64,000 nt of DNA, taken from NCBI RefSeq assembly GCF_030684315.1, contig NC_081374.1:11954837-12018836 (forward strand). Direction: 5' to 3'. The stretch is from Stegostoma tigrinum (taxonomy: Eukaryota). The notes below the pieces were generated by a model. The model was given only the letters and a program-made list of their open reading frames with translations. It did no database searches and was not told where the DNA came from. Below are positions 1,779 through 64,000 of the stretch, in pieces (positions within the stretch are counted from its first letter, which is position 1; every line of letters begins with the position of its first letter). The position numbers and the translations under genes are program-made.

Positions 1779-1785
1779 GTAATTC

Positions 1786-13493: not shown

Positions 13494-16093
13494 ATGTGGA
13501 TTGTGATTCTCCTCATTTGTTCCTTTCTCAATGAGTGACCGTCCGAGATGTTTATTTCACTAATTAATACTTATTAAAGCCTCCCATCTGGTTTATACTG
13601 TATAGAGGTGTTTACAGATTTGGAGACATGCAAAAACACAAAGGAACATCATGTTGACACAGCAGGTAATATCTTTATTGCTGTGGCAAATGCCTGAGAG
13701 TTTGATTCATTCTTGAGCACATTTTGCAAAGGAATGCGCATTCTCACAAACCCAAACAGGTTCATCATCATCCTGTAAATTCGTCCAATGTGCTCATGGC
13801 AGGGAGCAAGCGTGAATGAGATTCCAGGTCAGATTTATCCAGCGCAGTGTGATATCCCTCAAATTACACAAACTGGTCTCAGGAGGGTAAACTTTTCCAG
13901 GAAGAACAAACTCCAGAAATCTGATGCACTCTGAAACGCCAGCTTTTGTGCTGCTAAGATGCTGCTTGGCCTGCTGTGTTCATCCAGTTTCACACTTTGT
14001 TATCTGATGCTCCATGTGCTTTAAGGAAGCCTTTGAAGTTCAAATGAAAAATGTAAAAATACATGAACAACATCAGGAAATGTTACATCTTCTTCTGAAT
14101 ATATGATAATGTCATGGGACATAATTACCAAATACTTTACACCTGCATTAGTAATTATCAGTACAATGAAAAAGGACAGCAGAACATTTTTTTATAGTGA
14201 TTCAAACAGGATAAGCAATTGAGCTCGTCCAAAGTTTTTAATGTTTAATATGCACTGAAAACTGGTGTGCAAGACATCCCTCAAACAAAAGATCTTGGGG
14301 TTTGCTTTCATATTTTTAACTCTTATGGAACAATTCATTAAATATCGTTTTGCAAGGTGCTGTCACAAAAGTAAATGGTTGGAAGCTATTTCTTCCCATA
14401 AGGTGGTATTTTCCTTTCAGTCATTAACTTTAACTAAGCTGCTTATGGTTTTTTTTGCCCATCAATTATAACATTAAAATCTAACACTGCAGTAAAATGA
14501 TTGTTCAGTATTGTCTCTTCTCCTTCATTGATGATCAAGCAAATTTGAAACAAAATATTAAAATTCCAAGGCTCGGAGCTCAAGGAACCTTTCTGCAACA
14601 GTTTGAGAATCAAGCTCATCAATTTCATGTGGAATATCTTACAGACGGAAAACTGAAGCTTGTCGTGGTCGTCCATAATTGGAAAAGGAACAGGGTCCCT
14701 TGTGCTGTGAGGCATCGATGCAAACCTCTGAGCCACTTTACCACCCGTGATTAGGCTTCACATTTGTGAACTGTCCCTTGCTAAACTTCAAATCACTTCA
14801 TTATGTCCCTGAGGAATCTCATAATCTTCCTGTGTCACCTATTGGATCTCCACCTCACAATCAGAAAATTCAGCCCCTGTGCCCACCTTGAGCTGACACA
14901 CAAGCCCCCTATCCCTCCCTGGCTGAAAGCCTCACTCTCTGGTCAGAACAAGGACACTCCAGCCCCTGTAGCTTCCTTCACACTCATCCCCAGCTGACTC
15001 CAATCCAGGCCTGTCACTCAGGTTGCTCTCCAGGACGGCAAGATCTCGATGATGCCGCACACAGTGGAGTTCGAGACCACAGCGTGTAGCACAAGCACAA
15101 TTTCAAGTTTGGCCAAAACCCGACCAGTGAGGTAACACTGTTTAAGTTATTCCCCGTGAATCTGGAACACTCTGAGGACCTGATAAGGGTTTATATTAAT
15201 GATTACCTTCATCATAAATTGGATAGAATGGAACTGATTACAATGTAACTGAAAATGAAAAGCACTTCTTTGGAAATTTCCAAGTCTCTGAAATATTTTC
15301 TGCTCAGTTTCAGGTGCTTTATGGGCAGAGAGATCCTTGACGGGAATTTTGGGAAGAGCGATCATAATACATTGCCGCTACGAAGCACAGCGGTACCAGT
15401 CACACATTAAATATTGGTGTCACGGATGGACTCGTCAGTGTAATGTTATAGCAGCAACAAACTGGGCAAATGGGAGAATATCAATCACTGATAACAAAGC
15501 ACAAGGATTATTTCTTGTTACAATGAAGAACCTTCAATGGGGAGATGCAGGATGGTACAGCTGTGGGATTGACGCTCCAGGACTTGACCCACTGTTTAAT
15601 GTACAGCTGCACATCTCAGAAGGTACATATGTCTCACTGATATTATTTCAATTTTCAATTCTGCTGATATCTCTGATCAAATCTTTATCCAGGAAACAAG
15701 ATAACATAGTGTTGGAGGATATTTGATTTTTTGATGGCAGTCGATTTCTCAACAATTGTTTCTTTCCCACAGAAGCTGTCTCTACTCCCAAACTTCAGTT
15801 TTTGTCACAACCAAATGTCTCATGTTCTGGGGGCTCGGTCACCATCTCCTGTGAATCTGCCCGGGGATCCCTCCCCATTCTTTACACATGGTATGAGAGC
15901 TCATCTCAAAACTCAAAGATCTCTGGCACCAATAAACTGGATCTACATTGTCAATCCTTCACACAGCAACATCATCAGTATTACTGCACAGCCTCAAATA
16001 CTCAGGGAACAAAATCCAGTGAAATTGTTCGTGTGTCAGTCAACAATGTAACAGAGAAGAACTGCAGTTACACAGTGAAAATCAGCAGGATTG
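13494..16093 (+). pseudogene. Gene A: paralogous Ig receptor 5' half (exon 1 13494-13530, V exon 15308-15622, C2 exon 15773-16093); probably non-functional
   Basis: Leader MWIVILLICSFL is followed by ATGAGT instead of GTGAGT. V and C2 exons are intact and nearly identical to gene B. Homology to gene B ends at ~17126, before the stalk exon. Confidence 0.8.
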
Positions 16094-17541: not shown

Positions 17542-17659
17542 AGCTTTTCTGCTCCTAAGGTGCTGCTTGGCCAGCTGTGTACATCCAGCTCCACACTTTG
17601 TTATCTCGGATTCTCCAGCATCTGCAGTTCCCATTATCTCAGATCATGATATTCAAAGT

Positions 17660-20379: not shown

Positions 20380-20397
20380 GATCATGATATTCAAAGT

Positions 20398-29605: not shown

Positions 29606-30595
29606 AAAATTATCGGTAGAGCGAGGTCATTTATAGGTCTCACTGTGACCAGGAAAGGGGAAGTAACAATATTACACAGGCTTTTCTACGAGTAATGAAC
29701 CTCCATTTGTTCATGATGTCCTCTTGGATAATTACAAGTGAAAATGAAGTGAATCTGAGCATCATTCCCTTGTTTTAACAGGTCAAAGATATATTTGTGA
29801 CATTTCATCTACAATATCACCGACTACTGCACATTCCTATGACAAAAACTCTGAAAGGTATGATCTTCATTGTTTTGATTCCATGTGCGAGATTAACAAT
29901 ATTGTTTAACAATTTTGACCAAATGAGTGAAAGCCGCTTATTATTTTGGAAATGAAAATGGTGCTGGCTTTATATCAGGCTGCTGTGTCAGTTTCACATT
30001 GAAGGTCCAATTGTTTTTGAAAAGTACAAATGGAGAGCAATGTTTCTACTTTGCTGACCTTCAGGCTGCATTGCTCTTCTTCATTACTTCACAATTAAAC
30101 CGCATGGAGTGTGATGCACTGTGCTTGCCAAACCTACCTTGCTGCTGTGTGTTCTGGAGTGACTTTTCAGGGCAGTTTCATTCCTGCTGGTGAAAAGGAA
30201 TATTTGAGGTGATATATCTGCACAGTGACAGGGAGCTTTCAGCGTTAGCCTTTCGCATCACCTTACTCGCCTGAGCTGTCGGAAATAAGCAGCAGGAACT
30301 GAGAGTGTGATATAAACACTGAGTAAATAATTCTTTGAAGTTACAAAGATGATGAAGAGAAAATGCGAATTAAGTGCCAGTGACAAACAGAGAATATCGG
30401 AAACGCACAGCGGTTTAGTCCACATCTGTGCAGAAGTTGATCGAAAAAGTCAGTCTGATCATATCTTCCTCACAAATTCTGTTTCTTATTCAGGTCTCCA
30501 GCAGGTGCATTTCATTTGTTTTTAGCCAGATAGTGTTCTGTGATAGAAAAAGCATTGTCAGACTATAAATTTTATTTTAGGCCACATTTAATCAG

Positions 30596-30775
30596 CGGCC
30601 TGGTGGCTCACACAGCGCCAGGGACCCGGGTTCGATTCCGCACTTGGGGAATTGCATGTCTGTAGTTTGTATATTCTCCCCTTGTGGGTGTGGGATTCCT
30701 CTGTGTGCTCTGGTTTTAATCCCACAGCCCAAAGATGTGTAGGTTTGGTGGATTGGCCATGCCAAATTGCCTATA
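30596..30775 (+). mobile_element. HE1-like tRNA-derived SINE; paralog 54082-54255; minus-strand copies ~10850-11085, 28030-28255, 41900-42135, 46060-46410
   Basis: tggtggctc (A-box-like), GGTTCGATTCC (B-box), and ttctcccc..gtg..tgtgctc..cccacag.ccaaagatgtg..ggtggattggccatgc.aaattg body. Confidence 0.7.
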
Positions 30776-32527: not shown

Positions 32528-32619
32528 GTGAGTATCATGGACTTTACAAAAATAATTCTGTGCGCTCTAAGCTCTCCATCAATGAGATGTTCCTGTTTGG
32601 AGATGTTTCTGAAGCAGGA

Positions 32620-33475: not shown

Positions 33476-36400
33476 TGTCTTCACCTATTTCTGCTGTCAC
33501 CTGATCACCAGCACAACTACAGGGACACATTAACTCTCTGTGATCCAATGATCTTCGATGTGTACAAGCAGCATTGATATGTATTAGTTTTCCAGAACAT
33601 GTGTAACAGCCAATGGGGAAGGAGGAGTGTGATCTGGACATAGCTCCAGTTCATTTCAAGTTATCTTCAGTTCATTGCCATGTCCAGAATTCAATTCAAA
33701 ACTAACGTGAAAACGAAGGCATCAGACTCTGTCTCAGTGTTTCTGATGTTTCTTTCCAGTTCCTCATTGAATGTGATACTCTCAGCTCGACCAATTGGGA
33801 AAGTAAAGATTTTCTGCACCTGTGCCACTGGCTGGAAGTTTACATCTTGAGAAAATATTGACTAACTATCTCACATCGGATATTTGTTTCATCAATCCTG
33901 TATGAGAAAAGAGATCTTGTCATAAGATGATTTTGGATTAATGTAGTTGAAAAAGAACAAAAACCTGAAATGATCGCTGTAATCACAAATTGTAATCAGA
34001 GATGAGAACTGCAGACACTGGAGACTCCAAGATAACAAGGTGCAGAGCTGAATGAGCACTGCAGGACAAGCAGCATCTTAGGAGCAGGAAAGCGAGGTCG
34101 AGCCCCGAACCATCAGCTTTCCTACTCCTGAGATGCTGCTTGGCCTGCTGTGTTCATCCTTGTTATTTCACATGATGTGTTTCACTTTTATACGGGATAG
34201 ATCAATGTATATTTTTGAGAATGGGAGAATATCACAAAGAAAGAGGAAAGTGGGTGGAATTTAAACCTCCCTGGAACAATCAGGGAAATTACAAGAAGTT
34301 GGGAAAATATGCCAATCATGAAAGAATCAGAACTTCTCATCAAGAAAATATTTTCCAATTTTCTCCTCAGGTGTATGAATGGCGTCTTCAGAATCTCGCT
34401 ACTGAGTTGAGACCATCTTATTTCCATGTATTTGTGCTTCGTTATGAGCCCAACCCTCACCACGTTTTCACCATTTCCAATTGTTCTCTTCCACCCGGGA
34501 AATACACAGTGCAAATTCCCAATATGTTATTCACAGCAGCTTACTGGCAGGTACTACTCACTGATTGCTTGTCCCAAACCTCGCCAAGACTTCTTCTGTC
34601 TTCACCACAACGTCCCTGCACACTCCCTGGAGACAATCCTCCTCCACTCTATATCCACTCAAGTCATCATGAGCACAGCATCAGCCTTCCTTGCAGCATC
34701 AGAACTCCCCTCGCTCCAGCGCTCCCACCACTTGAATTTGGAGCTCACGGACAATTGTTTGCAGGCTGCCAGCCTCAGTGCTTTACATTGCTTTTAAACA
34801 CAGAGCCCTGTCATTGGAAGCCGCGGCCTGCCGGACTCTGGGAGCTGCATTGCATTGTACCACAGAGTTCAAAGTTGGCAACTTGTCACGGTGGGAGGCA
34901 CTGAGCAGGAAGGGAGTGGGCATCTCACTCTATGGCACAATGCCAAGTCAGTGTCACTCTGACAATACTGGTCAGTACGTCATGTGGCAAATACAGTGAT
35001 GTGTTTCAATGAAATTGCCATGTCTTAAAGTGAAAGTGGAGTAGTGCCGAGTGGGGTGATTGGGGACTATGGGGAATCTGGGGCTGACGTCACAATCAGT
35101 CCAGATGCTCATTCAATTCCAGTCCATGATCAGTCTGTGCCAGCTCTGACCAGACTCTGGGGATCTAGGGCCTTGTGTTCCAGGCACTGGGCCTCACTAA
35201 TGCAAGTGTATCCAGCCCAGGGATTACAGAGGGCTCAGTTTGGGAGCTTGGAGATATAAGTTACTGTACTGGGCCACTTTTATTGGAACTCTGCTGCCGA
35301 GTCAGTCCACATTGTTGTGGGAGTAGGCGATGACTTAATTGGGAATGGATTTATCAGGGCCAAGTCCATGGAAGCCAGAGGGAAATGATCAAATCAAGTC
35401 TGGGCTAGGCTCGATTGGACTGTGTCACTGAGAGAATGATGACAGTGAGTAAAGGCAGTTCAAGTTAAAAGAGTATTACAAGTGTAAAATAGACAGAGTA
35501 GGATTTCCGGTCATCACAATTACATACCTACAGTCAGAAGATTTTCTTCCAGCTTGAAGACATGAAAATCTTACAGTATTAGACAGGATGTACATTGTAT
35601 GTTTGGGTAATAAAATCATGTCCATCAAGTCATATAGTCACAAAATGCAAAGTTAGATACTCCAGTCCAACTCGTCCCCCTCAAACACACATCCCAATCT
35701 GACCTGGTCCCATTTGTCAGCTTTGGCCCCACATACCTCCAAACCTCTCCTACTCACATACCCATCCAGATGCCTTTTATATGCTGTAATTGTATCAGCA
35801 TTCACCACTTTGTCTGGCAGCTCATTGCTTAAATGCACTACCCTCTGTGTGAAAAGGTTACTCCTCAGTTATTTTGTTAAATCTTTTCCCATTCACCTTT
35901 GACCGCTGCCCTTTGTTTGTGGACTCCCACACCAGGGAAAAAGACCCGGGCTATTCAGCCTGTCCAAGCCCTCATTTCAATTAGTTTATTTCCTATAGAC
36001 ATGTGTAATAATGTGGAATGTAGACAATGTGAATACTGTTGGGTACCGGTATGGGTGAGCTCATATCTAACAGTTTGTTTTGGATATTATTATTTACAGA
36101 AAGCATTGTACGGAAGCTCGTTAGTTGTATGAATCAGATAAAGTCTTGTTGCCATTTGAAAGATGTGATCTGCTTGTCATTTTTTCATATATACAGCTTC
36201 AATGCCTGCATTAGTAAATATTTAAACAAAGAAACCTGACTCTGCTCCTGTCCAAAGAGGAAATACCACATAAGATCACCCTTTTGGGGGGCTCTCATAG
36301 AACATCGGAAGTGCCAGAGAGCAGCAGGAGGTGAGGTTTTCCCAGGTCACTGTCACTTTAGCCTGTACTTGGTGTGGGTTCAGGGCCAATAAGGACACTG

Positions 36401-36479
36401 AATTGTAGGCCTGAGAGGGGATAGTCTGCAATGTGCAAGGGATCCTCTTCATTGCGAAGGAGATGCCTATCATAGTGAC

Positions 36480-37800
36480 TTACTGCCAGAATTCTACACC
36501 CCCAATAAATCTCAATGTCTTTGGTTGTGCAGATTACATTTGGATGAGGTTATACAGCTCGGACATTCTCACGGTGTTATGACAGCGACAACAGTTGCCC
36601 TGAATTTTCTTGCCAATTTTCAAGGACCAACTGGACAGCTGTATGGCACCTCCAACTCTGACACACAAATGCAGACCAGCTGTCTCTGCTGCCGTTTTCT
36701 CCAGATCGCATCTGTTCATATGTTTCCCCGAGCTGTGACACAGATAGTATCTCCGTCCAGGAAGGGGAATATTCCACCACCACTGGCTTCCCCCAGGGAC
36801 AGGATGCTATAAGCTGCACCCACACTGCTTTCAGAATGTCCCCAGCACTAACTTGGAAATCTCAACAACAGGAAAGACTCCACCTCCATCAAGGCACACG
36901 TTGGGTGTAACCATCGATGCCAGGTTTTGGAGGTGGGTCATTGATATCCTGGGGGCTCCCACAATGTGCAGATAGTCGAGCGGTCACTGGGTCCCGCTTC
37001 TTCCCAATATTCTCAGGACATACAGGAATGGCTGCTGGGAGACAGGAAGAGCCCTCCTGAAACTTGGCTGATGGCATTTTTATCAAACCCATAGACTGAT
37101 ACAGTATGAAGATACAATGCTGCTCCTGCTTCCACCAGGGCCACTGTGGAACAGACCATAGGGCTCGTTAAGATGGGGTTTTGATGCCTAGAATTCTTCA
37201 GCGTGACCTTGCAGCTTTGCCCAGAATGTCTCCCCCATCAGTATGGCTGCTGGGGCCCTCACAGATGGAGCTGACAAAGATTGTTGGAGGGGGGCAGTGG
37301 GATGTCCCACATCCAGGTGAAATGGGGTGGGGGTCATATTCGGGCTCACTGTCACTGACTGGAACTTCTGCAGTGGCTCTGCATCCCAGGCAGGAAGGAA
37401 ATGGAGAGACCAGACATCACTGGAGTGTCATGAGGGGAAACATTGAGGGATTTTCTGTGAGGGTCCTCCTCTCTATGGGTGCCTCCTGACACCATCCTGT
37501 CACTTTGAGAGGAAGGGGAACCTGGAGTGATGTCAATAGCCACGTCACACTCTCACCTCCTCAGTGACGCTGAACACCCACGGCCTCAGCAATGGAGTGT
37601 CGGTCCGTGTTCATATCCAGCAGACACTGAGTGGACTGGACCTGAGTCTGAGAGACACCCGCCCACCTCTCCAAGGGGATGGTCAGACACATCGCCTGGG
37701 ACTGATAGTGTTGGCTTATTCCTCCATTCTTTGATCCAGTTTAACAGCTGCCCCTGACATACCTACCTGCTGTGCTTGTGCCCGTCAGTGCATGTTCACA
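36480..37800 (-). mobile_element. Possible highly decayed PIF/Harbinger accessory (Myb/SANT-type ORF) relic; paralogs ~7960-10120, 25125-27290, 59960-61280
   Basis: Minus-strand remnants MSGAAVKLDQRMEE / MSEEVIRPDQRLEES and QCLLDMN..RHSIAEAV recall the C-terminal part of shark Harbinger-associated proteins; gccagaattctacacccc resembles their termini. Based on recall only. Confidence 0.25.
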
Positions 37801-37860
37801 AAGTCAGTAAGATTACAGCTGACAATTCTGAAGATTGAAACCATTGTCTTTGGTCACACC

Positions 37861-40478
37861 ACATAGAACATAGAACGTAACAGCGCAGTACAGGTCATTC
37901 AGCTCTCAATGTTTCACCGGCCTATGAAACCAATCTGAAGCCGAACTAGCCTACACTATCCCATTATTATCCATCTATTTATCCAATGACCATTTAGATG
38001 CCCTTAAAGTTGGCGAGTCTATTACAGTTGCAGGCTGGGCATTACACGCCCTTACTTCTTTCTGAGCAAAGAACCTACCTCTGACATCAGTCCTGTAGCT
38101 ACCACCCCTCAATTTAAAGCTATGTCCCCTTGCGCTAGCCATCACCATCAGAGGAAAAAGCCTCTCACTGTCCCCCTATCTAATCCTCTGATCATCTTAT
38201 ATATCTCTATTAAGTCGCCGCTTAACCTTCTTCTCTCCAATGAAAACAACCTCAAGCCCCTCAACCTTTCCTCATAGGACATTCACTCCATACCAAGCAA
38301 CATCCTCTGCACCCTTTCCAATGCTTCCACATCCTTCCTATAATGCGGCGACCAGAACTGTAAGCAATATTCCAGTGTAGCCGCATCAGAGTTTTATGCA
38401 GCTGCAACATTACCTCATGGCTCAGAAACTCAATCCCTCTACCAATAAAACTTAGTACATCATACACCTTCCTAACCACCCTATCAACCAGGGTGGCAAC
38501 TTTCAGGGATCTATGCACATGGACACCAAGATCTCTCTGCTCATCTGCACTACCAAGAATCTTACCATTAGCCCAGGACTCTGTATTCCTGTTACTCCTT
38601 CCAAAGTGAATCACCTCACACTTTTCTGCATTCAACTCCATTTGCCACCTCTCAGCCCAGCTCTGCAGCTTATCTACATCTCTCTGTCATCTGCAACGTC
38701 CTTCCACACGATCCACAACTCCACTGACTTTAGTATCATCCGCAAATTTACTAACCCATCCTTCTACACGCTCATCCAGGTCATTTATAAAAATGACAAA
38801 CAGCAGTGGCCCCAAAACAGATCCTTGTGTTATACCAGAAACTGGACTCCAGGATGAACATTTCCCATCAACCACTACCCTCTGACTTAGAACATAGAAC
38901 ATAGAAAAGTACAGCACAGTACAGGCCCTTTGGCCCACGATGTTGTGCCGTGGAATAATCCTAATCCAAAAGTAAAATAACCTCACCTACATTCCCCTCA
39001 ATTCACTGCAGTCCATGTGCATGTCCAGCAGTCGCTGAAATGTCACTAATGACTCCGCTTCCATGACTACCACTGACAAACTATTCCATGCGCTCACAAC
39101 TCTCTGGGTGAAGAACCTCCCTCTGACATCTCTTCTATACCTTCCAACTAATACCTTAACACTATGACCCCACATGGCAGTCAATCCTGCCCCGGGGAAA
39201 AGTCTCTGGCTATCAACTCTATCCATGCCTCTCATTACCTCGTACACCTCGATCAGGTCACCTCTCTTCCTCCTTCTCTCCAGAGAGAAAAGTTCGAGCT
39301 CAGTCAACCTCTCCTCGTAAGACAAGCCCTCCAGTCCAGGCAGCCTCCTGGTAAACCTCTTTTGCACCCTCTCCATAGCCTCCACATCTTTCCTGTAATA
39401 GGGCGAACAGAACTGGACACAATATTCCAAGTGTGGTCTCAACAGATTTTGTAGAGCTGCAGCATAAACACGCGGCTCTTAAACTTGATCCCCTTGTCAA
39501 TGAAATTCAAAACACCATCTGCTTTCTTAACAACCTTATCCACCTGGGTGGCAACTAGGCTGACTGGTCTGTAATTTCCAGGGATTTCCCTATTCCCTCT
39601 CTTGAAAAGAGAAACAACGTTTGCCTCCCTCCAATCTTCTGGTATGACTCCCGTGGAGAGTGAGGAAGCAAAGATCTTTGGCAGTGGCTGAGCAAACTCT
39701 TTTCTTGCTTCCCGAAGAAACCTAGGATAAATCTGGTCTAGCCCTGGGGACTCATCAATCTTAATGTTCACTAAAATTTCCAGCACATCACCTTCCTCAG
39801 TCATGATCTGTTCAAGCCTGTCTTCCTGCTCCTCAAAGTTCTCATTCACAACAAGGTCCCTTTCCTTTGTGAAAACCAAAGAAAATAACTCATTTAGGGC
39901 TTCCCCTATCTGCTCAGAATCCATGCACAAGTTCCCTATGCTATCCCTGATTGGCCCTACCTTCTCCCTGATCATTCTCTTATTCCTCACGTATGAGTAA
40001 AATGCCTTCGGGTTCTCCCTCATCCTTCCTGCCAAGCCTTTTTCGTGCACCCTCCTGGCCCTCCTCAGTCCACTTTTGAGCTCCTTCCGAGCAAGCCTGT
40101 AATCCTCTAAAGCTGTGCTAGACCCTTGCTTCCTCCACCTTACGTAAACTGCCTTTTACATTTTGACAAGAAGCACTTCTGTACCCGTCATCCAAGGCTC
40201 CTTAATCTTACCCCTTCTTACCTGTCTCAGAAGAACAAATTTACACATCATTCGCAACAACTGCTCCTTAAACAGTCTCCGCATGTCTGTTGTGCCCCTT
40301 CTGTGGAACAACTGCTCCCAATCTGTACTTCCCAACTCCTGCCTGATAGCGTCATAATTTCCTTTTCCCCAGTTAAATATCTTCCCCTGGTAACTGCTCC
40401 TTTCCTTTTCCATGTCTTCTTGCAGCTAGCCAATTTCTGATCCAAACCGCTAAATCACCCTCAATCCCATGCCTCCGT
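37861..40478 (-). mobile_element. Two adjacent or nested CR1 LINE fragments (junction ~38890), internally deleted
   Basis: ORFs 38261..38641, 38687..38986 ([17 protein letters not shown]), 38987..39442, 39439..40050; (CATAGAA)n 3' tails at ~37862 and ~38890; absent at the paralogous site ~10190. Confidence 0.88.
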
Positions 40479-41120
40479 ATTCAATCACCTTTCCTTAGCC
40501 ACTGACTCCATCCATCTCCCTGTTCAACAGAGCCCTCATCCAACATGTTTTGAGTTCCACATTCAGCCATTCCCATACCATCCCAGCTGGACTTGAACCT
40601 TCCACCATACATCAACTTAATCTCATCCAAATCTTTCCTCCAACTTTACATCTTTAAAGGTACGATAGAAATGCAAGTTACCTTGTTTGCAAACATTGAT
40701 AGGGCAAGATTTTTTTTAAATGTGCAAACCAGCCTACTGGATCTAGAAAGATGTGAATCCATACTGCGCGGAAGAACAAATTGAAATATTGTCCCAGACA
40801 TTAAAATTCAAATTAATTTGAATTGAAATGAACAGAATGAAATTCAAATTAAAACCTGACATTTTTAAAATAGCTTTCATTCCAACATTACATTATTTAT
40901 AAAAATGCTTCTGTCTACAGCAAGCTACGTGTAAATGGCTCATTCTCAATGAAACCGCATTCAGTTTGGGCCCAGTCCATTAAATCCTCAACTAGAATCA
41001 TGGTCATTGAGAAGTGTGAATGAGAATTACACAATTCCTACAGTGCAGAAAGAGGCCATTGGGCCCATCAGGGTTACACTATCTCTGTCAAGAACATCCC
41101 ACCAGACTGGAAATTCCACT

Positions 41121-44554: not shown

Positions 44555-44591
44555 ATGTGGACTTTGATTCTTCTGATTTGTTCCATTCCCG
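44555..44591 (+). CDS. Gene B exon 1: signal peptide (MWTLILLICSIP) of a CD300/pIgR-like Ig receptor
   Basis: ATG at 44555, 12 hydrophobic codons plus 1 nt, then strong donor G|GTGAGT at 44592; phase 1 fits exon 2. Confidence 0.85.
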
Positions 44592-46972: not shown

Positions 46973-47287
46973 TTTCAGATGCTTTATGGGCAGAGAGATC
47001 CTTGACGGGAATTTTGGGAAGAGCGATCACAATACATTGCCACTATGAAGCACAGTGGTACCAGTCACACATTAAATATTGGTGTCACGGATGGACTCGT
47101 CAGTGTAATGTTATAGCAGCAACAAACTGGGCAAATGGGAGAATATCAATCACTGATAACAAAGCACAAGGAATATTTCTTGTTACAATGAAGAACCTTC
47201 AATGGGGAGATGCAGGATGGTACAGCTGTGGGATTGACGCTCCAGGACTTGACCCAATGTTTTATGTACAGCTGCACATCTCAGAAG
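46973..47287 (+). CDS. Gene B exon 2: V-type Ig domain, CD300/pIgR family
   Basis: Acceptor ttttctcctcAG, donor G|GTACAT, phase 1-1. Translation VSDALWAERSLTGILGRAITIHCHY...KYWCHGWTRQC...GRISITDN...GDAGWYSCG has B and F strand Cys, the C-strand Trp, DxGxYxC, and the extra WC-x6-C pair typical of CD300/pIgR/TREM V domains. Confidence 0.92.
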
Positions 47288-47437: not shown

Positions 47438-47758
47438 AAGCTGTCTCTACTCCCAAACTTCAGTTTTTGTCACAACCAAATGTCTCATGTTCTGAGGGCT
47501 CGGTCACCATCTCCTGTGAATCTGCCCGGGGATCCCTCCCCATTCATTACACATGGTATGAGAGCTCATCTCAAAACTCAAAGATCTCTGGCACCAATAA
47601 ACTGGATCTACATTGTCAATCCTTCACACAGCAACATCATCAGTATTACTGCACAGCCTCAAATACTCAGGGAACAAAATCCAGTGAAATTGTTCGTGTG
47701 TCAGTCAACAATGTAACAGAGAAGAACTGCAGTTACACTGTGAAAATCAAGAGCACCG
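47438..47758 (+). CDS. Gene B exon 3: C2-type Ig domain (FCRL/PECAM-like)
   Basis: Acceptor tttctttcccacAG, donor G|GTAAGT, phase 1-1. EAVSTPKLQF...GSVTISCESARGSLPIHYTWY...YYCTASN; the C-x4-GSLPI-x-YTWY and YYCxASN patterns resemble FCRL-type C2 domains. Confidence 0.9.
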
Positions 47759-53200: not shown

Positions 53201-55066
53201 GCACAACTAATGAATGGACAGTTACAACAAATAAAAGATGAAAAGGAAAGGTTTGGTGGGAAATGGGCCAAATGCAGACGAGTGGGACTAGTTCAATTTG
53301 AGAAACTTAGGCAACATTGACGTGTTGAACCAAAGGGTCTGTTTCCGTGCTGTATGACTCATTGACTCTGTAAAATTATCGGTAGAATTAGGTCATTTAC
53401 AGGTGTCATTGTGATCAGAGAAGGGGAAATAATGATATCACACAGACTTTTTGTGCAAGTAATGAGCTTCCATTTGTTCATGATGTTCTCTTGGATAATT
53501 ACAAGTGAAAATGAGGTGAATCTGAACATCATTCCCTTCTTTCAACAGGACAGAGATATATTTGTAACAGTTCTTCAACAATACCACCAACGACTACATA
53601 TTCCCCAAATACAAATCGAATTTCTTCTCCCAGTCAAACTCCAAACTCAGCAGACAATCTGTCTGAAAGGTATGATACTCTTTGTTTTGTATCCATGTTC
53701 GAAATTAACAACTTGTTCAACAATTTTGGCCAAACGAGTGAAAGCCGCTTATTATTTTGGAAATGAAAATGGTGCTGGGTTGATATCAGGCTGCTGTGTC
53801 AGTTTCACATTGAAGGTCCAATTGTTTTTGAAAAGTACAATTGGAGAACATACTTTCTATTTTGCTGACCTTCAGACTGCATTGCTCATCTTCATTACTT
53901 CACCATTAAACCACATGGAGTGTGATGCACTGTGCTTGCCAAACCTACCTTGCTGCTGTGTGTCCTGGAGTGTGATATCAGGGCAGGTTCATTCCTGCTG
54001 GTGAAAAGAAAGATTTGAGGTGATATATCTGCACAGTGACTGGGAGCTTTCAGTGTAAGTCTTTCGCATCAACTCCAATCGCGTGGTGGCTCACAGCGCC
54101 AGCGACCCGGGTTCGATTCCGCACTTGGGGAATTGCATGTCTGTAGTTTGCATATTCTCCCCTTGTGGGTGTGGGATTCCTCTGTGTGCTCTGGTTTTAA
54201 TCCCACAGCCCAAAGATGTGTAGGTTCGGTGGATTGGCCATGCCAAATTGCCTATTTCCGTGTTCCATCACCTTACTTCACGAAATGGGAGACTGAAGGT
54301 CAAAGTATTCGGGGATTTTCAATTTTTCACTTCTAGTGAGTTTTGCAATAATTCTTTTACGACCCCACCTCAAGATTCAGAGAGAACTTTGACATCAATA
54401 AACTGGATCTATGCTGTGTCAGTTGCCAGGGGAGCAGAGAGAAGCTGCAGTGAGATGACATAAATCAGCAGCATCTATAATTTTGAAACGGACTCTGATG
54501 TTGATTCATTCATTTCATGACAATTCAAGATGTTCATTCGTTTAGTTTCTTCAGTCACATGAACAACTGCACCTCATTACATTTCATCACTTTGATATTT
54601 GAACAAATTTGAAAAATTCGATGAATCATTTTTGAAAATGAATGCAAGTGTAAGATATCTCCAGAAAATGCACGAATGTTGCACTCCAGTTTTGTTTTAC
54701 ATCTCCCAGCTTGCAGGTGTTATGCCTTGAATAGACAAATTCATCACTGTATCAGAGCATGTGACCTAAGGGGATAATGGTGGCAGGCTCCATCTCAGTT
54801 TGGGTCACTTCAAGCATAACATGCTGATGGAAGTGTTCCACTGTATGTAATAGAAGAGCTCAGTTTTAGCACGCACCCTGAAATGATGACTTTGTCCATT
54901 AGAGGCTGAACACATCAAATTAGATAAAATAAAATGTGTTATTACTCATCTCAGCTCAGGGTGTTGTAGTTTTCAAAGTAAAGAAATGGCAGCTTTTGAA
55001 AACTCAGGGCATTCAGCGGTATCATCAACAGGGTCATTACATTCTCCACCATCTTCTCTTCCTCAG

Positions 55067-55076
55067 ATCCGCAGAG
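55067..55076 (+). CDS. Gene B exon 5: 10-nt microexon ATCCGCAGAG (D-P-Q-S)
   Basis: Long polypyrimidine tract ttctccaccatcttctcttcctcAG, donor AG|GTACAA. It supplies exactly the phase 1 to phase 2 shift the TM exon needs. Confidence 0.65.
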
Positions 55077-55917
55077 GTACAAACTGATAGGGTGAAAGAC
55101 TGTCTGGTTCCAGATGGTTAAGACTTGCCTGTTAGAAAGTGCAAGGAGCAATGTGGGTTAATGCCATGATAACAAACTGTGAGGCTGGATGAACACAGCA
55201 GGCCAAGCAGCATCTCAGGAGCACAAAAGCTGACGTTTCAGGCCTAGAACCTTCATCAGAGAGGGGGATGGGGAGAGGGAACTGGAATAAATAGGGAGAG
55301 AGGGGGAGGCGGACCAAAGATGGAGAGTAAAGAAGATAGGTGGAGAGAGTGTAGGTGGGGAGGTAGGGAGGGGATAGGTCAGTCCAGGGAAGACGGACAG
55401 GTCAAGGAGGTGGGATGAGGTTAATAGGTAGCTGGGGGTGCGGCTTGGGGTGGGAGGAAGGGATGGGTGAGAGGACTAACCGGTTAGGGAGGCAGGGACA
55501 GGTTGGACTGGTTTTGGGATGCAGTGGGTGGGGGGGAAGAGCTGGGCTGGTTGTGTGGGTTAATGCTATTGTGAGTTTCTCACTCAGTGATCAGACACCT
55601 CACTGTTGTAATATTATACCAGACTGCAGTGCCTCCTGCAAATGTCCAACCATTTAAACTTTTAATCCTCATGTATAACTTTGTCCTGAGCATTACAGGA
55701 CATGCTACTGAAACTTGTTGAATTTGACGGTTACCTATTTGTTCATGTCATTCAAGAATTAAGATGTAGTTCAGTTTTCCCGCTGCCGCCCCTGAGCTGT
55801 GCTACTTTAATTTGCTACAATATATTAAGATTGCAGGTTAAATAGTGGATAAATGTTTGAAACCTGAAGCGGACTCACTTTTGTCAAATGATTTTGTATT
55901 TCTTACATTTTGCTCAG

Positions 55918-56008
55918 TTACGTTGTCTGGAATGTGATACGCTGGATGGTCTTCGCTCTCCTGGTGATTTGTTCTGTTTCTGTCACAAAGAATGTGAGAA
56001 AACATTAG
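55918..56008 (+). CDS. Gene B exon 6: transmembrane segment with Arg plus very short tail (YVVWNVIRWMVFALLVICSVSVTKNVRKH*)
   Basis: Acceptor ttcttacattttgctcAG; hydrophobic ~22-aa stretch followed by basic residues; TAG at 56006-56008 directly followed by GTGGGT (GTGAGT in the paralog). Confidence 0.82.
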
Positions 56009-57240
56009 GTGGGTATCATGGACTTTACAAAAATAATTCTGTGCGCTCTAAGCTCTCCATCAATGAGATGTTCCTGGTTGGAGATGTTTCTGAAGCACGA
56101 GACACTGTTTGAGAAGAATGGGTTGGCCATTTGAGACTGAGATAAACAGGAATTTTTACTCAGAGGAGAGGAATATTTGGAATTCTCTTCCCCAGAGAGC
56201 TCTGGAGGCTCCAGCTTTGAGTATAGTCTAAACAGAGATCAATAAATTTCTGGGTAATAGAGATATCAAGGGTCATGGGAATAATGCAACACAAAAATGG
56301 CTTTCAGGGAGAAGATCTGACATGATCCAGGTGAATGCTGAAGGAGCCTTCAGGGGCTGAATGGTGTCCTCTGCTCGTTCCTCAGAAGTCTCCGTATCCA
56401 TATTCCAAAGGAATTGTATAATGCTATTGCACAACCATGCTAAATCCATTCATGCCTTCAGGTAGAACCAAGGCTAAACATTAGGCTGGTCCCAGGTATG
56501 GAGGGATTATCTTATGAGGAGAGTTTGCATAGGATTGGTGCTGTCCTCATTCGAATCTAGAAGAATGAGAAGTTGGCTTCTAGAAACATTCTAGCTACTT
56601 CCAGGACATGATGCGGTAAATGCAGGTTGTATGTTTCCACTTGTGGTGGAGATGTAGATCACAGCATATCATCACAGATGGTACATATGTTTAAATTGCA
56701 GATGAGGAGAATTTGTTTTTATCTCTGAGGTGGCTGTGAACCTGTAGAATTAGTTGACAAGGAGGATTGATGAGGCTCTGCCATGAGTGCTCTACACTCA
56801 AGGCTGGGATAGACAGGTTTTTAATCAGTCAGTGAATCAAGAGTTACGGGAAAAGGTCGGAAAGTGGGGTTGAGGATGATGAGATCAGCCATGATCCAGT
56901 TGAATGGCAGAGCAGACACAATGGGCTGAATGGCGCAGTTTTGTTCCAATGTCTTATGTCTTCACCTATTTCTGCTGTCACCTGATCACCAGCACAACTA
57001 CAGGGATACATTAACTCTCTGTGATCCAATGATCTTCGATGTGTACAAGCAGCATTGATATGTATTAGTTTTCCAGAACATGTGTAACAGCCAATGGGGA
57101 AGGAGGAGTGTGATCTGGACATAGCTCCAGTTCATTTCAAGTTATCTTCAGTTCATTGCCATGTCCAGAATTCAATTCAAAACTAACGTGAAAACGAAGG
57201 CATCAGACTCTGTCTCAGTTTTTCTGATGTTTCTTTCCAG

Positions 57241-57480
57241 TTCCTCATTGAATCTGACACTCTCAGCTCGACCAATTGGGAAAGTAAAGATTTTCTGCAC
57301 CTGTGCCACTGGCTGGAAGTTTACATCTTGAGAAAATATTGACTAACTATCTCACATCGGATATTTGTTTCGTCAATCCTGTGTGGGAAAAGAGATCTTG
57401 TCATAAGATGATTTTGGATTAATGTAGTTGAAAAAGAACAAAAACCTGAAATGATCGCTGTAATCACAAATTGTAATCAG
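57241..57480 (+). other. Probable non-coding 3' UTR exon of gene B (end not defined); paralog starts at 33760
   Basis: Strong acceptor tttctgatgtttctttccAG after the TM-exon donor; no clear AATAAA seen, so the end coordinate is arbitrary. Confidence 0.35.
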
Positions 57481-60400
57481 AGATGAGAACTGCAGACACT
57501 GGAGATTCCAAGAACACAAGGTGCAGAGCTGAATGAGCACTGCAGGACAAGCAGCATCTTAGGAGCAGGAAAGCGAGGTCGAGCCCCGAACCATCAGCTT
57601 TCCTACTCCTGAGATGCTGCTTGGCCTGCTGTGTTCATCCTTGTTATTTCACATGATGTGTTTCACTTTTATACGGGATAGATCAATGTATATTTTTGAG
57701 AATGGGAGAATATCACAAAGAAAGAGGAAATTGGTGGAATTTTTCCCTCCCTGGAACAATCAGGGAAATTACAAGAAGTTGGGAAAATATGCCAATCATG
57801 AAAGAATCAGAACTTCTCATCAAGAAAATATTTTACAATTTTCTCCTCAGGTGTATGAATGGCATCTTCAGAATCTCGCTACTGAGTTGAGACCATCTTA
57901 TTTCCATGTATTTGTGCTTCGTTATGAGCCCAACTCTCACCACGTTTTCACCATTTCCAATTGTTCTCTTCCACCCGGGAAATACACAGTGCAAATTCCC
58001 AATATGTTATTCACAGCAGCTTACTGGCAGGTACTACTCACTGATTGCTTGTCCCAAACCTCGCCAAGACTTCTTCTGTCTTCACCACAACGTCCCTGCA
58101 CACTCCCTGGAGACAATCCTCCTCCACTCTATATCCACTCAAGTCATCATGAGCACAGCATCAGCCTTCCTTGCAGCATCAGAACTCCCCTCGCTCCAGC
58201 GCTACCACCACTTGAATTTGGAGCTCACGGACAATTGTTTGCAGGCTGCCAGCCTCAGTGCTTTACATTGCTTTTAAACACAGAGCCCTGTCATTGTAAG
58301 CCGCAGCCTGCCAGACTCTGGGAGCTGCATTGCATTGTACCACAGAGTTCAAAGTTGGCAACTTGTCACGGTGGGAGGCACTGAGCAGGAAGGGAGTGGG
58401 CATCTCACTCTATGGCACAATGCCAAGTCAGTGTCACTCTGACAATACTGGTCAGTACGTCATGTGGCAAATACAGTGATGTGTTTCAATGAAATTGCCA
58501 TGTCTTAAAGTGAAAGTGGAGTAGTGCCGAGTGGGGTGATTGGGGACTGTGGGGAATCTGGGGCTGACTCCACAATCAGTCCAGATGCTCATTCAATTCC
58601 AGTCCATGATCAGTCTGTGCCAGCTCTGACCAGACTCTGGGGATCTAGGGCCTTGTGTTCCAGGCACTGGGCCTCACTAATGCAAGTGTATCCAGCCCAG
58701 GGATTATAGAGGGCTCAGTTTGGGAGCTTGGAGATATCAGTTACTGTACTGGGCCACTTTTATTGGAACTCTGCTGCCGAGTCAGTCCACATTGTTGTGG
58801 GAGTAGGCGATGACTTAATTGGGAATGGATTTATCAGGGCCAAGTCTATGGAAGCCAGAGGGAAATGATCAAATCAAGTCTGGGCTAGGCTCGATTGGAC
58901 TGTGTCACTGAGAGAATGATGACAGTGAGTAAAGGCAATTCAAGTTAAAAGAGTATTACAAGTGTAAAATAGACAGAGTAGGATTTCCGGTCATCACAAT
59001 TACATGCCTACAGTCAGAAGATGTTCTTCCAGCTTGAAGACATGAAAATCTTACAGTATTAGACAGGATGTACATTGTATGTTTGGGTAATAAAATCATG
59101 TCCATCAAGTCATATAGTCATAAAATGCAAAGTTAGATCCTCCAGTCCAACTCGTCCCCCTCAAACACACATCCCAATCTGACCTGGTCCCATTTGTCAG
59201 CTTTGGCCCCACATACCTCCAAACCTCTCCTACTCATATACCCATCCAGATGCCTTTTATATGCTGTAATTGTATCAGCATTCACCACTTTGTCTGGCAG
59301 CTCATTGCTTAAATGCACTACCCTCTGTGTGAAAAGGTTACTCCTCAGTTATTTTGTTAAATCTTTTCCCATTCACCTTTGACCGCTGCCCTTTGTTTGT
59401 GGACTCCCACACCAGGGAAAAAGACCCGGGCTATTCAGCCTGTCCAAGCCCTCATTTCAATTAGTTTATTTCCGATAGACATGTGTAATAATGTGGAATG
59501 TAGACAATGTGAATACTGTTGGGTACCGGTATGGGTGAGCTCATATCTAACAGTTTGTTTTGGATATTATTATTTACAGAAAGCATTGTACGGAAGCTCG
59601 TTAGTTGTATGAATCAGATAAAGTCTTGTTGCCATTTGAAAGATGTGATCTGCTTGTCATTTTTTCATATATACAGCTTCAATGCCTGCATTAGTAAATA
59701 TTTAAACAAAGAAACCTGACTCTGCTCCTGTCCAAAGAGGAAATACCACATAAGATCACCCTTTTGGGGGGCTCTCATAGAACATCGGAAGTGCCAGAGA
59801 GCAGCAGGAGGTGAGGTTTTCCCAGGTCACTGTCACTTTAGCCTGTACTTGGTGTGGGTTCAGGGCCAATAAGGACACTGAATTGTAGGCCTGAGAGGGG
59901 ATAGTCTGCAATGTGCAAGGGATCCTCTTCATTGCGAAGGAGATGCCTATCATAGTGACTTACTGCCAGAATTCTACACCCCCAATAAATCTCAATGTCT
60001 TTGGTTGTGCAGATTACATTTGGATGAGGTTATACAGCTCGGACATTCTCACGGTGTTATGACAGCGACCACAGTTGCCCTGAATTTTCTTGCCAATTTT
60101 CAAGGACCAACTGGACAGCTGTATGGCACCTCCAACTCTGACACACAAATGCAGACCAGCTGTCTCTGCTGCCGTTTTCTCCAGATCGCATCTGTTCATA
60201 TGTTTCCCCGAGCTGTGACACAGATAGTATCTCCGTCCAGGAAGGGGAATATTCCACCACCACTGGCTTCCCCCAGGGACAGGATGCTATAAGCTGCACC
60301 CACACTGCTTTCAGAATGTCCCCCGCACTAACTTGCAAATCTCAACAACAGGAAAGACTCCACCTCCATCAAGGCACACGTTGGGTGTAACCATCGATGC

Positions 60401-61340
60401 CAGGTTTTGGAGGTGGGTCATTGATATCCTGGGGGCTCCCACAATGTGCAGATAGTCGAGCGGTCACTGGGTCCTGCTTCTTCCCAATATTCTCAGGACA
60501 TACAGGAATGGCTGCTGGGAGACAGGAAGAGCCCTCCTGAAACTTGGCTGATGGCATTTTTATCAAACCCATAGACTGATACAGTATGAAGATACAATGC
60601 TGCTCCTGCTTCCACCAGGGCCACTGTGGAACAGACCATAGGGCTCATTAAGATGGGGTTTTGATGCCTAGAATTCTTCAGCGTGACCTTGCAGCTTTGC
60701 CCAGAATGTCTCCCCCATCAGTATGGCTGCTGGGGCCCTCACAGATGGAGCTGACAAAGATTGTTGGAGGGGGGCAGTGGGATGTCCCACATCCAGGTGA
60801 AATGGGGTGGGGGTCATATTCGGGCTCACTGTCACTGACTGGAACTTCTGCAGTGGCTCTGCATCCCAGGCAGGAAGGAAATGGAGAGACCAGACATCAC
60901 TGGAGTGTCCTGAGGGGAAACATTGAGGGATTTTCTGTGAGGGTCCTCCTCTCTATGGGTGCCTCCTGACACCATCCTGTCACTTTGAGAGGAAGGGGAA
61001 CCTGGAGTGATGTCAATAGCCACGTCACACTCTCACCTCCTCAGTGACGCTGAACACCCACGGCCTCAGCAATGGAGTGTCGGTCCGTGTTCATATCCAG
61101 CAGACACTGAGTGGACTGGACCTGAGTCTGAGAGACACCCGCCCACCTCTCCAAGGGGATGGTCAGACACATCGCCTGGGACTGATAGTGTTGGCTTATT
61201 CCTCCATTCTTTGATCCAGTTTAACAGCTGCCCCTGACATACCTACCTGCTGTGCTTGTGCCCGTCAGTGCATGTTCACAAAGTCAGTAAGATTAAAGCT
61301 GACAATTCTGAAGATTGAAACCATTGTCTTTGGTCACACC

Positions 61341-63958
61341 ACATAGAACATAGAACGTAACAGCACAGTACAGGTCATTCAGCTCTCAATGTTTCACCGG
61401 CCTATGAAACCAATCTGAAGCCGAACTAGCCTACACTATTCCATTATTATCCATATATTTATCCAATGACCATTTAGATGCCCTTAAAGTTGGCGAGTCT
61501 ATTACAGTTGCAGGCTGGGCATTACACGCCCTTACTTCTTTCTGAGTAAAGAACCTACCTCTGACATCAGTCCTGTAGCTACCACCCCTCAATTTAAAGC
61601 TATGTCCCCTTGCGCTAGCCATCACCATCAGAGGAAAAAGCCTCTCACTGTCCCCCTATCTAATCCTCTGATCATCTTATATATCTCTATTAAGTCGCCG
61701 CTTAACCTTCTTCTCTCCAATGAAAACAACCTCAAGCCCCTCAACCTTTCCTCATAGGACATTCACTCCATACCAAGCAACATCCTCTGCACCCTTTCCA
61801 ATGCTTCCACATCCTTCCGAGAATGCGGCGACCAGAACTGTAAGCAATATTCCAGTGTAGCCGCATCAGAGTTTTATGCAGCTGCAACATTACCTCATGG
61901 CTCAGAAACTCAATCCCTCTACCAATAAAACTTAGTACATCATACACCTTCCTAACCACCCTATCAACCAGGGTGGCAACTTTCAGGGATCTATGCACAT
62001 GGACACCAAGATCTCTCTGCTCATCTGCACTACCAAGAATCTTACCATTAGCCCAGGACTCTGTATTCCTGTTACTCCTTCCAAAGTGAATCACCTCACA
62101 CTTTTCTGCATTCAACTCCATTTGCCACCTCTCAGCCCAGCTCTGCAGCTTATCTACATCTCTCTGTCATCTGCAACGTCCTTCCACACTATCCACAACT
62201 CCACTGACTTTAGTATCATCCGCAAATTTACTAACCCATCCTTCTACACCCTCATCCAGGTCATTTATAAAAATGACAAACAGCAGTGGCCCCAAAACAG
62301 ATCCTTGTGGTATACCAGAAACTGAACTCCAGGATGAACATTTCCCATCAACCACTACCCTCTGACTTAGAACATAGAACATAGAAAAGTACAGCACAGT
62401 ACAGGCCCTTTGGCCCACGATGTTGTGCCGTGGAATAATCCTAATCCAAAAGTAAAATAACCTCACCTACATTCCCCTCAATTCACTGCAGTCCATGTGC
62501 ATGTCCAGCAGTCGCTGAAATGTCACTAATGACTCCGCTTCCATGACTACCACTGGCAAACTATTCCATGCGCTCACAACACTCTGGGTGAAGAACCTCC
62601 CTCTGACATCTCTTCTATACCTTCCAACTAATACCTTAACACTATGACCCCTCATGGCAGTCAATCCTGCCCCGGGGAAAAGTCTCTGGCTATCAACTCT
62701 ATCCATGCCTCTCATTACCTCGTACACCTCGATCAGGTCACCTCTCTTCCTCCTTCTCTCCAGAGAGAAAAGTCCGAGCTCAGTCAACCTCTCCTCGTAA
62801 GACAAGCCCTCCAGTCCAGGCAGCCTCCTGGTAAACCTCTTTTGCACCCTCTCCATAGCCTCCACATCTTTCCTGTAATAGGGCGACCAGAACTGGACAC
62901 AATATTCCAAGTGTGGTCTCAACAGATTTTGTAGAGCTGCAGCATAAACACGCGGCTCTTAAACTTGATCCCCTTGTCAATGAAATTCAAAACACCGTCT
63001 GCTTTCTTAACAACCTTATCCACCTGGGTGGCAACTAGGCTGACTGGTCTGTAATTTCCAGGGATTTCCCTATTCCCTCTCTTGAAAAGAGGAACAACGT
63101 TTGCCTCCCTCCAATCTTCCGGTATGACTCCCGTGGAGAGTGAGGAAGCAAAGATCTTTGGCAATGTCTTAGCAAACTCTTTTCTTGCTTCCCGGAGAAA
63201 CCTAGGATAAATCTGGTCTAGCCCTGGGGACTCATCAATCTTACTGTTCACTAAAATTTCCAGCACATCACCTTCCTCAGTCATGATCTGTTCAAGCCTG
63301 CCTTCCTGCTCCTCAAAGTTCTCATTCACAACAAGGTCCCTTTCCTTAGTGAAAACCAAAGAAAATAACTCATTTAGTGCTTCCCCTATCTGCTCAGACT
63401 CCATGCACAAGTTCCCTATGCTATCCCTGATTGGCCCTACCTTCTCCCTGATCATTCTCTTATTCCTCACGTATGAGTAAAATGCCTTCGGGTTCTCCCT
63501 CATCCTTCCTGCCAAGCCTTTTTCGTGCACCCTCCTGGCCCTCCTCAGTCCACTTTTGAGCTCCTTCCGAGCAAGCCTGTAATCCTCTAAAGCTGTGCTA
63601 GACCCTTGCTTCCTCCACCTTACGTAAACTGCCTTTTTCTTTTTGACAAGAAGCACTTCTGTACCCGTCATCCAAGGCTCCTTAATCTTACCCCTTCTTA
63701 CCTGTCTCAGAAGAACAAATTTACACATCACTCGCAACAACTGCTCCTTAAACAGTCTCCGCATGTCTGTTGTGCCCCTTCTGTGGAACAACTGCTCCCA
63801 ATCTGTACTTCCCAACTCCTGCCTGATAGCGTCATAATTTCCTTTTCCCCAGTTAAATATCTTCCCCTGGTAACTGCTCCTTTCCTTTTCCATGTCTTCT
63901 TGCAGCTAGCCAATTTCTGATCCAAACCGCTAAATCACCCTCAATCCCATGCCTCCGT
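61341..63958 (-). mobile_element. Duplicate of the CR1 block at 37861-40478
   Basis: ORFs 61741..62121, 62167..62466 ([12 protein letters not shown]), 62467..62922, 62919..63893. Confidence 0.88.
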
Positions 63959-64000
63959 ATTCAATCACCTTTCCTTAGCCACTGACTCCATCCATCACCC

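What the first reader, a model, noticed from the sequence alone, without database searches (positions are those of the whole stretch)
55918..56008. TM motif PQ-S-Y-x3-N-x2-R matches the FcRgamma-coupling signature of LILRA/FcalphaRI/GPVI/NKp46
Seen: the spliced sequence reads DPQSYVVWNVIRWMVFALLVICSVSVTKNVRKH*, with no tyrosine motif in the tail. Established (recalled): activating LRC receptors have PQDYTVENLIRM (LILRA), YTTQNLIRM (FcalphaRI) and YTKGNLVRI (GPVI), and pair through this Arg with FcRgamma/CD3zeta. The Tyr, Asn and Arg spacing is the same here. Inference: this is an activating receptor signalling via an ITAM adaptor, probably FcRgamma rather than DAP12.
Basis: partly seen in the sequence, partly recalled or inferred. 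Interest (0 to 1): 0.78.

Follow-up and report, generated by a model that had tools for sequence, protein, structure and literature searches.

The report
Shark activating immune receptor, known family
This is the membrane anchor of a shark immune receptor from a family already known in skates; its buried arginine probably recruits an activating partner protein, but the close match to mammalian receptors that caught the eye is mostly coincidence.

Summary
The TM exon is real (55918-56008, +). It ends a 294-aa receptor: signal, pIgR/CD300-type V, FCRL-type C2, mucin stalk, TM, 7-residue tail without Tyr. The V domain is 100% identical to a zebra shark RefSeq model. The family is MDIR: skate MDIR5 has the same TM type. 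Y-x3-N-x2-R is present, but 'DPQ' comes from a 10-nt intronic piece that competes with the conserved stalk exon; RefSeq splices stalk to TM (SESY). In 41 homologous TMs the Arg is invariant (41 of 41, column masked) and Y/F at R-7 is common (37 of 41), but Asn at R-3 is in only 3 of 41; 12 of the 13 other shark TMs have Asp. So the family motif is W-x-V-x-R-W, not the LRC NxxR/DYT signature, and the protein is not an LRC member. An Arg in the outer third, a signal-free tail and near-identical ITIM-bearing paralogues still favour an activating paired receptor docking an FcRgamma/CD3zeta-type dimer, not DAP12 (about 0.65, inferred; no RNA or binding data). This copy looks like a recent chimera: inhibitory-type ectodomain on an activating TM exon.

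The parts
44555..44591 (+). Copy 2: coding part of signal-peptide exon (ATG to phase-1 donor)
   Evidence: Canonical donor CCG|GTGAGT; matches homologue N-termini
46973..47287 (+). Copy 2: V-set Ig exon, pIgR/CD300 type
   Evidence: Pfam V-set E 1.8e-9; best PDB hits pIgR and CD300f; 50% identical to skate MDIR5, 54% to MDIR2
47438..47758 (+). Copy 2: C2-type Ig exon, FCRL-like, ending with a conserved extra Cys
   Evidence: Pfam Ig_3; best PDB hit FCRL5; in frame in the spliced model
53549..53669 (+). Copy 2: Cys-bearing Ser/Thr/Pro-rich stalk exon, phase 1 to 2; the likely real partner of the TM exon
   Evidence: Strong splice sites; matched by homologues; Cys pair in 26 of 30; 36 of 39 aa identical to the stalk of the ITIM unit of P0001
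54081..64000 (+). Block 98.9% identical to 30598-40520 of copy 1; its left edge is the apparent crossover point between stalk and TM exon
   Evidence: Self-BLAST; 82.6% identity before, 98.7% after
55067..55076 (+).
   Evidence: In frame only if the stalk is skipped; frameshift with it; weak donor; absent from RefSeq model P0001
55918..56008 (+). Copy 2: TM exon with Tyr (55919), Asn (55931), Arg (55940), 7-residue tail and TAG stop before a GT donor
   Evidence: 13 of 23 identical to MDIR5 TM; present unchanged in runs X1, X2
57851..59094 (+). Tentative 3' untranslated exon (end set at first polyA-like hexamer; uncertain)
   Evidence: Strong acceptor; RefSeq P0001 uses the homologous exon at 34371; hexamer at 59089
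13494..13530 (+). Copy 1: signal exon with a dead donor (ATGAGT in place of GTGAGT)
15308..16093 (+). Copy 1: V exon (15308-15622) and C2 exon (15773-16093), each 97.5% identical to copy 2
29782..29857 (+). Copy 1: shorter stalk exon, 74% identical to copy 2
   Evidence: used by RefSeq P0001
32437..32527 (+). Copy 1: TM exon, identical to 55918-56008

Best explanation
The exon encodes the TM of the activating member of a shark paired-receptor cluster of the MDIR (pIgR/CD300-like V plus FCRL-like C2) family. Shown: gene structure, family, short Tyr-free tail, invariant Arg-Trp near the outer end of the helix, ITIM-bearing paralogues with almost the same ectodomain. Inferred: the Arg pairs with the Asp pair of a disulfide-linked FcRgamma or CD3zeta-type dimer (RDD assembly); ligand binding clusters the complex and the adaptor's ITAMs recruit Syk/ZAP70, opposed by the ITIM paralogues seeing the same ligand. 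The Arg and its depth carry the coupling; the Asn is a lineage-specific state (probably from Asp by one transition) and DPQ is not part of the main protein.
For: Arg in 41 of 41 homologous TMs scored with the Arg column masked; W at R+1, and W/V/F/L pattern nearly invariant. No ITIM in 30 of 30 short tails. The other TM class in the family is uncharged with ITIM tails. V domains group by species, not by signalling class (SH-aLRT 95 for the zebra shark clade). FcRgamma takes an N-terminal Arg, DAP12 a central Lys, flanking residues largely exchangeable (PMC1440944 passages; PMC13107469). Xenopus non-LRC receptors with a similar Arg TM need FcRgamma for surface expression (PMC2413239 passages). 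AlphaFold2 model of the epaulette shark orthologue puts the Arg inside one continuous helix after a disordered stalk (pLDDT 82).
Against: No RNA or binding data. A 2014 survey found no FcRgamma in cartilaginous fish (PMC4016189); I could not search for the adaptor. In catfish LITR 2.6b the TM charge was dispensable for FcRgamma binding (PMC4810170), and mouse CD300 member LMIR8 couples to FcRgamma with a Lys (PMC5974347), so residue rules have exceptions. This TM has the shortest uncharged run after the Arg of all 41 (15 residues against 18 in 32 of 41) and a longer branch than its shark relatives. Homologues are mostly automatic gene models, many fused.
Confidence: 0.65

Rival explanations
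1. One reading: the TM carries the LRC signature itself (PQ, Tyr, Asn, Arg), with DPQ spliced in and the Asn a conserved part of the FcRgamma interface.
For: Y-x3-N-x2-R spacing is exact; the DPQ piece has a good acceptor and gives an open frame when the stalk is skipped; the real V-exon donor is almost as weak; a review allows that polar residues one turn above the Arg may matter, untested (PMC13107469 section 2.2.1).
Against: Asn in 3 of 41; Asp at R-8 in 0 of 41; Thr at R-6 in 0 of 41; PQ in 2 of 41. Asn rows fall in three separate places of the TM tree (28 columns only). Skipping the stalk leaves an unpaired Cys.
Confidence: 0.07
2. The Arg is only an interfacial (snorkelling) residue next to Trp; the receptor couples by another surface, to another adaptor (DAP10/DAP12), or acts as a non-signalling decoy or Ig/lipid-binding capture receptor.
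For: Arg is flanked by Trp at R-4 and R+1, typical of membrane interfaces (established knowledge); 18 uncharged residues follow in most homologues, enough to span alone; LITR precedent; a sturgeon pIgR-like protein has the same W-x-x-L-R-W pattern; FcRgamma not found in sharks in one survey.
Against: A mere anchor would tolerate Lys, yet Arg is 41 of 41; in this copy only 15 uncharged residues follow, so the Arg must lie within the membrane span; strict pairing of this TM with short tails and of uncharged TMs with ITIM tails.
Confidence: 0.2
3. This particular copy is a non-expressed duplicate or an assembly artefact, so the TM exon here has no function.
For: 9.9 kb at 98.9% identity with copy 1; copy 1 has a dead signal-exon donor; RefSeq P0001 skips this copy's stalk and TM; no listed contig bridged 53744-54257.
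Against: Copy 2 has an intact 294-aa frame with canonical sites; the copies differ strongly upstream of 54081; orthologous short-tailed genes exist in three other carpet sharks.
Confidence: 0.12

Closest known systems
Modular domain immune-type receptors (MDIR2, MDIR5) of clearnose skate; MDIR5 = ABC86800.1
   Same: pIgR/CD300-type V plus C2 plus stalk; V 50-54% identical; MDIR5 has the same Arg-Trp TM (13 of 23 identical) and a short tail; MDIR2 is the uncharged long-tail form. Described as an activating/inhibitory multigene family (PMC3031540 passages).
   Different: One V rather than MDIR5's two V matches; Asn instead of Lys at R-3; tail cut to 7 residues by a stop where 29 of 41 homologues have Lys.
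NxxR-TM receptors of the LRC (LILRA, FcalphaRI, GPVI, NKp46, OSCAR, TARM1)
   Same: Arg in the outer third, aromatic at R-7, polar residue at R-3, short tail; probable RDD coupling.
   Different: Ectodomain is not LRC-type; no DYT, no acidic residue at the TM end in this protein; Asn not conserved in the family; Trp at R-4 and R+1 instead.
Xenopus XFL (FCRL) and SLAM-like receptors with NxxR TM
   Same: A non-LRC Ig family using an outer Arg TM in its activating members; FcRgamma dependence shown for XFL2 (PMC2413239; PMC4536121).
   Different: There NxxR is the conserved family motif; here it is W-x-V-x-R-W, and the N-terminal domain is V-type.
Mammalian CD300/CLM/LMIR paired receptors and pIgR
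   Same: V domain with the extra disulfide, mucin stalk, paired activating and ITIM forms; some members couple to FcRgamma (LMIR8).
   Different: CD300s lack the C2 domain; LMIR8 uses a TM Lys, not an outer Arg.

Membership tests
MDIR | N-terminal V domain related to CD300/TREM/pIgR | tested here: met
MDIR | C2-type domain(s) and stalk behind the V domain | tested here: met
   (same layout as MDIR2)
MDIR | Multigene cluster with activating and inhibitory forms | tested here: met
   Two copies in window; ITIM units in P0001, P0012; labels rest on automatic models
MDIR | TM homologous to a deposited MDIR | tested here: met
   13 of 23 identical to MDIR5 TM
MDIR | Expression in leukocytes | not testable with these tools
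   No RNA holder listed
LRC activating receptors (LILRA/FcalphaRI/GPVI/NKp46) | LRC-type C2-only ectodomain | tested here: not met
   Best hits pIgR, CD300, FCRL5; none of these LRC names among the 60 shown of 110 PDB hits or
LRC activating receptors (LILRA/FcalphaRI/GPVI/NKp46) | NxxR as a conserved TM motif | tested here: not met
   Present in this protein, but Asn in 3 of 41 homologous TMs
LRC activating receptors (LILRA/FcalphaRI/GPVI/NKp46) | DYT consensus at TM start and acidic residue at TM end (PMC6557307) | tested here: not met
   Asp 0 of 41, Thr 0 of 41, Tyr 27 of 41; no acidic residue in this tail, 16 of 41 in the family
LRC activating receptors (LILRA/FcalphaRI/GPVI/NKp46) | Linkage to TTYH1, LENG8, RPS9 | not testable with these tools
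   No whole genome held; window holds only this cluster and repeats
FcRgamma/zeta-coupled (RDD) receptors, as a mechanism | Arg, not Lys, in the outer third of the TM | tested here: met
   rule from PMC1440944
FcRgamma/zeta-coupled (RDD) receptors, as a mechanism | Short tail without signalling motif | tested here: met
FcRgamma/zeta-coupled (RDD) receptors, as a mechanism | Adaptor gene present in the species | tested here: inconclusive
   Literature only: not found in 2014; searches and supplement look-ups gave no statement either way
FcRgamma/zeta-coupled (RDD) receptors, as a mechanism | Arg-dependent physical association | not testable with these tools
   Needs co-expression experiments

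The most novel reading that the evidence does not exclude
The elasmobranch Y/F-x2-W-x-V-x-R-W TM, the similar TM of a sturgeon pIgR-like protein and the tetrapod NxxR TM descend from one FcRgamma/zeta-docking exon of the jawed-vertebrate ancestor, shuffled onto unrelated ectodomains (MDIR/CD300, FCRL, SLAM, LRC). Sharks would then run FcRgamma-class activating receptors although FcRgamma was reported absent, and the cluster would still be making new activating receptors by moving this exon onto inhibitory ectodomains, as copy 2 suggests.
Probability: 0.25. Interest if true: 0.6.

Novelty: new member of a known kind. Interest (0 to 1): 0.3.

Why it matters
It gives a concrete, testable receptor for asking which ITAM adaptor cartilaginous fish use for innate activation, which the papers I could read leave open. 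It also shows a paired-receptor cluster in motion: an activating gene whose V domain is identical to that of an ITIM-bearing neighbour. The family and its Arg TM have been in GenBank as skate MDIR5, so the basic fact is not new, and the headline match to mammalian LRC receptors is weaker than claimed.

Tried and rejected
No whole genome held, so no synteny or adaptor search. No RNA holder listed; the four runs laid were contigs covering introns and gave no splice evidence, and none listed bridged 53744-54257. TM alone against PDB: only weak P2Y14 hits, E at least 0.14; against Pfam: none. ESM Atlas on the orthologue's TM region: no usable hit. First fold (P0094, 11 rows) poor, pLDDT 51. Search for a remnant small tail exon in 56015-57840: nothing convincing. 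Longer readings of the DPQ region (upstream acceptors, a Ser/Pro-rich frame ending in phase 1) have no homologue support and were dropped. Teleost pIgR TM sequence not found in a supplement. Elephant shark supplement held as text gave no hit for the adaptor names; parts not held as text may bear on this. Kortum 2014 not held. No earlier scan findings. No complex prediction: no adaptor sequence was available from the tools. Searches ended in script errors after printing part of their output and were redone; one search had two exon bounds off by one, corrected.

Full report
1. Observation. The stretch 55918-56008 is a real exon. It follows a pyrimidine-rich acceptor, begins in phase 2 and encodes a hydrophobic helix (Kyte-Doolittle 2.1 over 19 residues) with Tyr at 55919, Asn at 55931 and Arg at 55940, then a 7-residue basic tail and TAG directly before a GT donor. 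The tail has no Tyr. An identical exon lies at 32437-32527. Contigs from public runs X1 and X2 carry the exon without a difference (at most two samples of one study, one may be the source).

2. The gene. Upstream lie a signal exon (44555-44591), a V exon (46973-47287), a C2 exon (47438-47758) and a stalk exon (53549-53669). Joined by canonical sites they give an open 294-aa frame. The V domain is closest to pIgR and CD300f, the C2 to FCRL5. The V domain is 100% identical to a zebra shark RefSeq model, P0001, which fuses four V-C2 units; units 2 and 3 are the two copies in the window. An AlphaFold2 model of the epaulette shark orthologue shows V, C2, a disordered stalk and one helix holding the Arg.

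3. 'DPQ' is probably not in the protein. It needs a 10-nt piece at 55067-55076. Like the stalk it runs from phase 1 to phase 2, so the two exclude each other; using both shifts the frame and loses the TM. RefSeq joins stalk to TM. The stalk carries a Cys 12-18 residues after a Cys at the end of C2 in 26 of 30 homologues with a C2 near the TM; skipping the stalk would leave it unpaired (inference). PQ at the matching place is seen in 2 of 41 homologues. The donor of the piece matches 5 of 9 consensus letters and failed a scan that passed 11 candidates. Against this: the acceptor is good, the true V donor is hardly stronger, and no RNA was available, so a minor isoform is not excluded.

4. The Asn is not the family signature. 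Two searches gave 98 homologues, nearly all elasmobranch. They hold 41 TMs of this type (33 distinct; an earlier, narrower pattern found 38). Scored with the Arg and R-3 columns masked, all 41 have Arg. R-3 is Lys 17, Asp 12, Ser 4, Asn 3, Thr 3, Met 2. Among the 14 shark TMs 12 have Asp, one Ser, and only P0001 has Asn. The Asn codon is AAT, one transition from GAT (inference that this was the path). In a 28-column tree the Asn rows fall in three separate places (weak resolution). What is conserved is S-[YF]-x-x-W-x-V-[GI]-R-W-x-x-F-x-L-L. The LRC features listed in PMC6557307 (passages), DYT and an acidic residue at the TM end, are absent: Asp at R-8 and Thr at R-6 in 0 of 41. The aromatic at R-7 (37 of 41) is the one real family-wide likeness besides the Arg.

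5. Family. Skate MDIR2 and MDIR5 are in the hit lists. MDIR5 (ABC86800.1) has the same TM (13 of 23 identical) and a short tail; MDIR2 has an uncharged TM and long tail. MDIRs are described as activating/inhibitory multigene families related to CD300, TREM and pIgR (PMC3031540 passages). I did not see the original MDIR paper (Cannon and colleagues 2006, recalled); searches surfaced only PMC3031540 as relevant, so I cannot say what it states about the Arg. Among 129 new representatives from a profile search, five more had the same TM with varied R-3, and looser W-x-x-x-R-W TMs occur in further ray and shark pIgR-like proteins and in a sturgeon pIgR-like protein.

6. How it most likely works. 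Shown: two TM classes in the family, uncharged with ITIM tails, and Arg-bearing with short tails (no ITIM in 30 of 30); V domains of both classes cluster by species (quick tree, 37 rows, labels from automatic models). [quoted passage not shown] Inferred: this receptor docks an FcRgamma or CD3zeta dimer through the Arg and signals by its ITAMs (0.65). Against: FcRgamma was not found in sharks in 2014 (PMC4016189 passages), though that survey also missed pIgR-like genes that current annotations list; charge was dispensable in catfish LITR 2.6b (PMC4810170 passages); LMIR8 couples to FcRgamma with a Lys (PMC5974347 passages). Searches listed no paper settling FcRgamma in sharks. The ligand is unknown; by family, immunoglobulin, lipid or pathogen surfaces are candidates (established for pIgR and CD300, not tested).

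7. A side result. Copy 2 looks chimeric. Its V is 104 of 104, its C2 104 of 106 and its stalk 36 of 39 residues identical to unit 4 of P0001, which ends in an uncharged TM and ITIM tail, whereas copy 1's stalk is only 74% identical in DNA. From 54081 on, copy 2 is 98.7-98.9% identical to copy 1. Unequal crossover between stalk and TM exon would explain this: an inhibitory-type ectodomain on an activating TM. Copy 1 has a dead signal-exon donor. The joint was not bridged by independent contigs, so an assembly artefact remains possible. The stop sits where 29 of 41 homologues have Lys and where five carpet-shark models also end, which suggests a carpet-shark AAG-to-TAG truncation (inference).

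8. Verdict. Observation partly confirmed; interpretation partly supported. It works like an FcRgamma-class activating receptor; it is an MDIR, not an LRC member. New member of a known kind; interest 0.3. The bolder reading, one ancestral Arg TM exon shared by MDIR, FCRL, SLAM and LRC, is open at about 0.25. Other papers seen: PMC9321927 (passages, supplement search), PMC3964593 (supplement search only).

Noticed in passing
window 53549-54081 and 54081-64000: Copy 2 appears chimeric: ectodomain and stalk nearly identical to an ITIM-bearing unit of P0001, TM region 98.9% identical to copy 1.
   Followed up: partly
window 13528-13536: Signal-exon donor of copy 1 reads ATGAGT instead of GTGAGT; copy 1 may be a pseudogene.
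   Followed up: partly
window 56006-56014: Stop codon is the last codon of the TM exon, at a position that is Lys in 29 of 41 homologues; shared with bamboo and epaulette sharks.
   Followed up: partly
window 1778-11607 and 17119-28780: About 10 kb duplicated at 96-98%; it places a copy of the putative 3' terminal exon (23084) inside the C2-stalk intron of copy 1 and another at 5918, which could yield secreted V-C2 forms.
   Followed up: no
window 47700-47758 and 53549-53570: A Cys at the end of the C2 exon and a Cys at the start of the stalk exon are co-conserved in 26 of 30 homologues, suggesting an extra disulfide across the exon joint.
   Followed up: partly
P0001, P0002, P0012 and other RefSeq models: Automatic models fuse several tandem genes of this cluster into 900-1700 aa proteins; P0001 also reads past the TM stop.
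   Followed up: no
P0161: A sturgeon pIgR-like protein has a W-x-x-L-R-W-x-x-F TM with a short tail, like the elasmobranch activating TM.
   Followed up: partly
window 134-1867 (-), 18760-19854 (+), 62170-63905 (-): Reverse-transcriptase-like frames of retroelements, apparently Penelope- and CR1-like (judged by eye).
   Followed up: no
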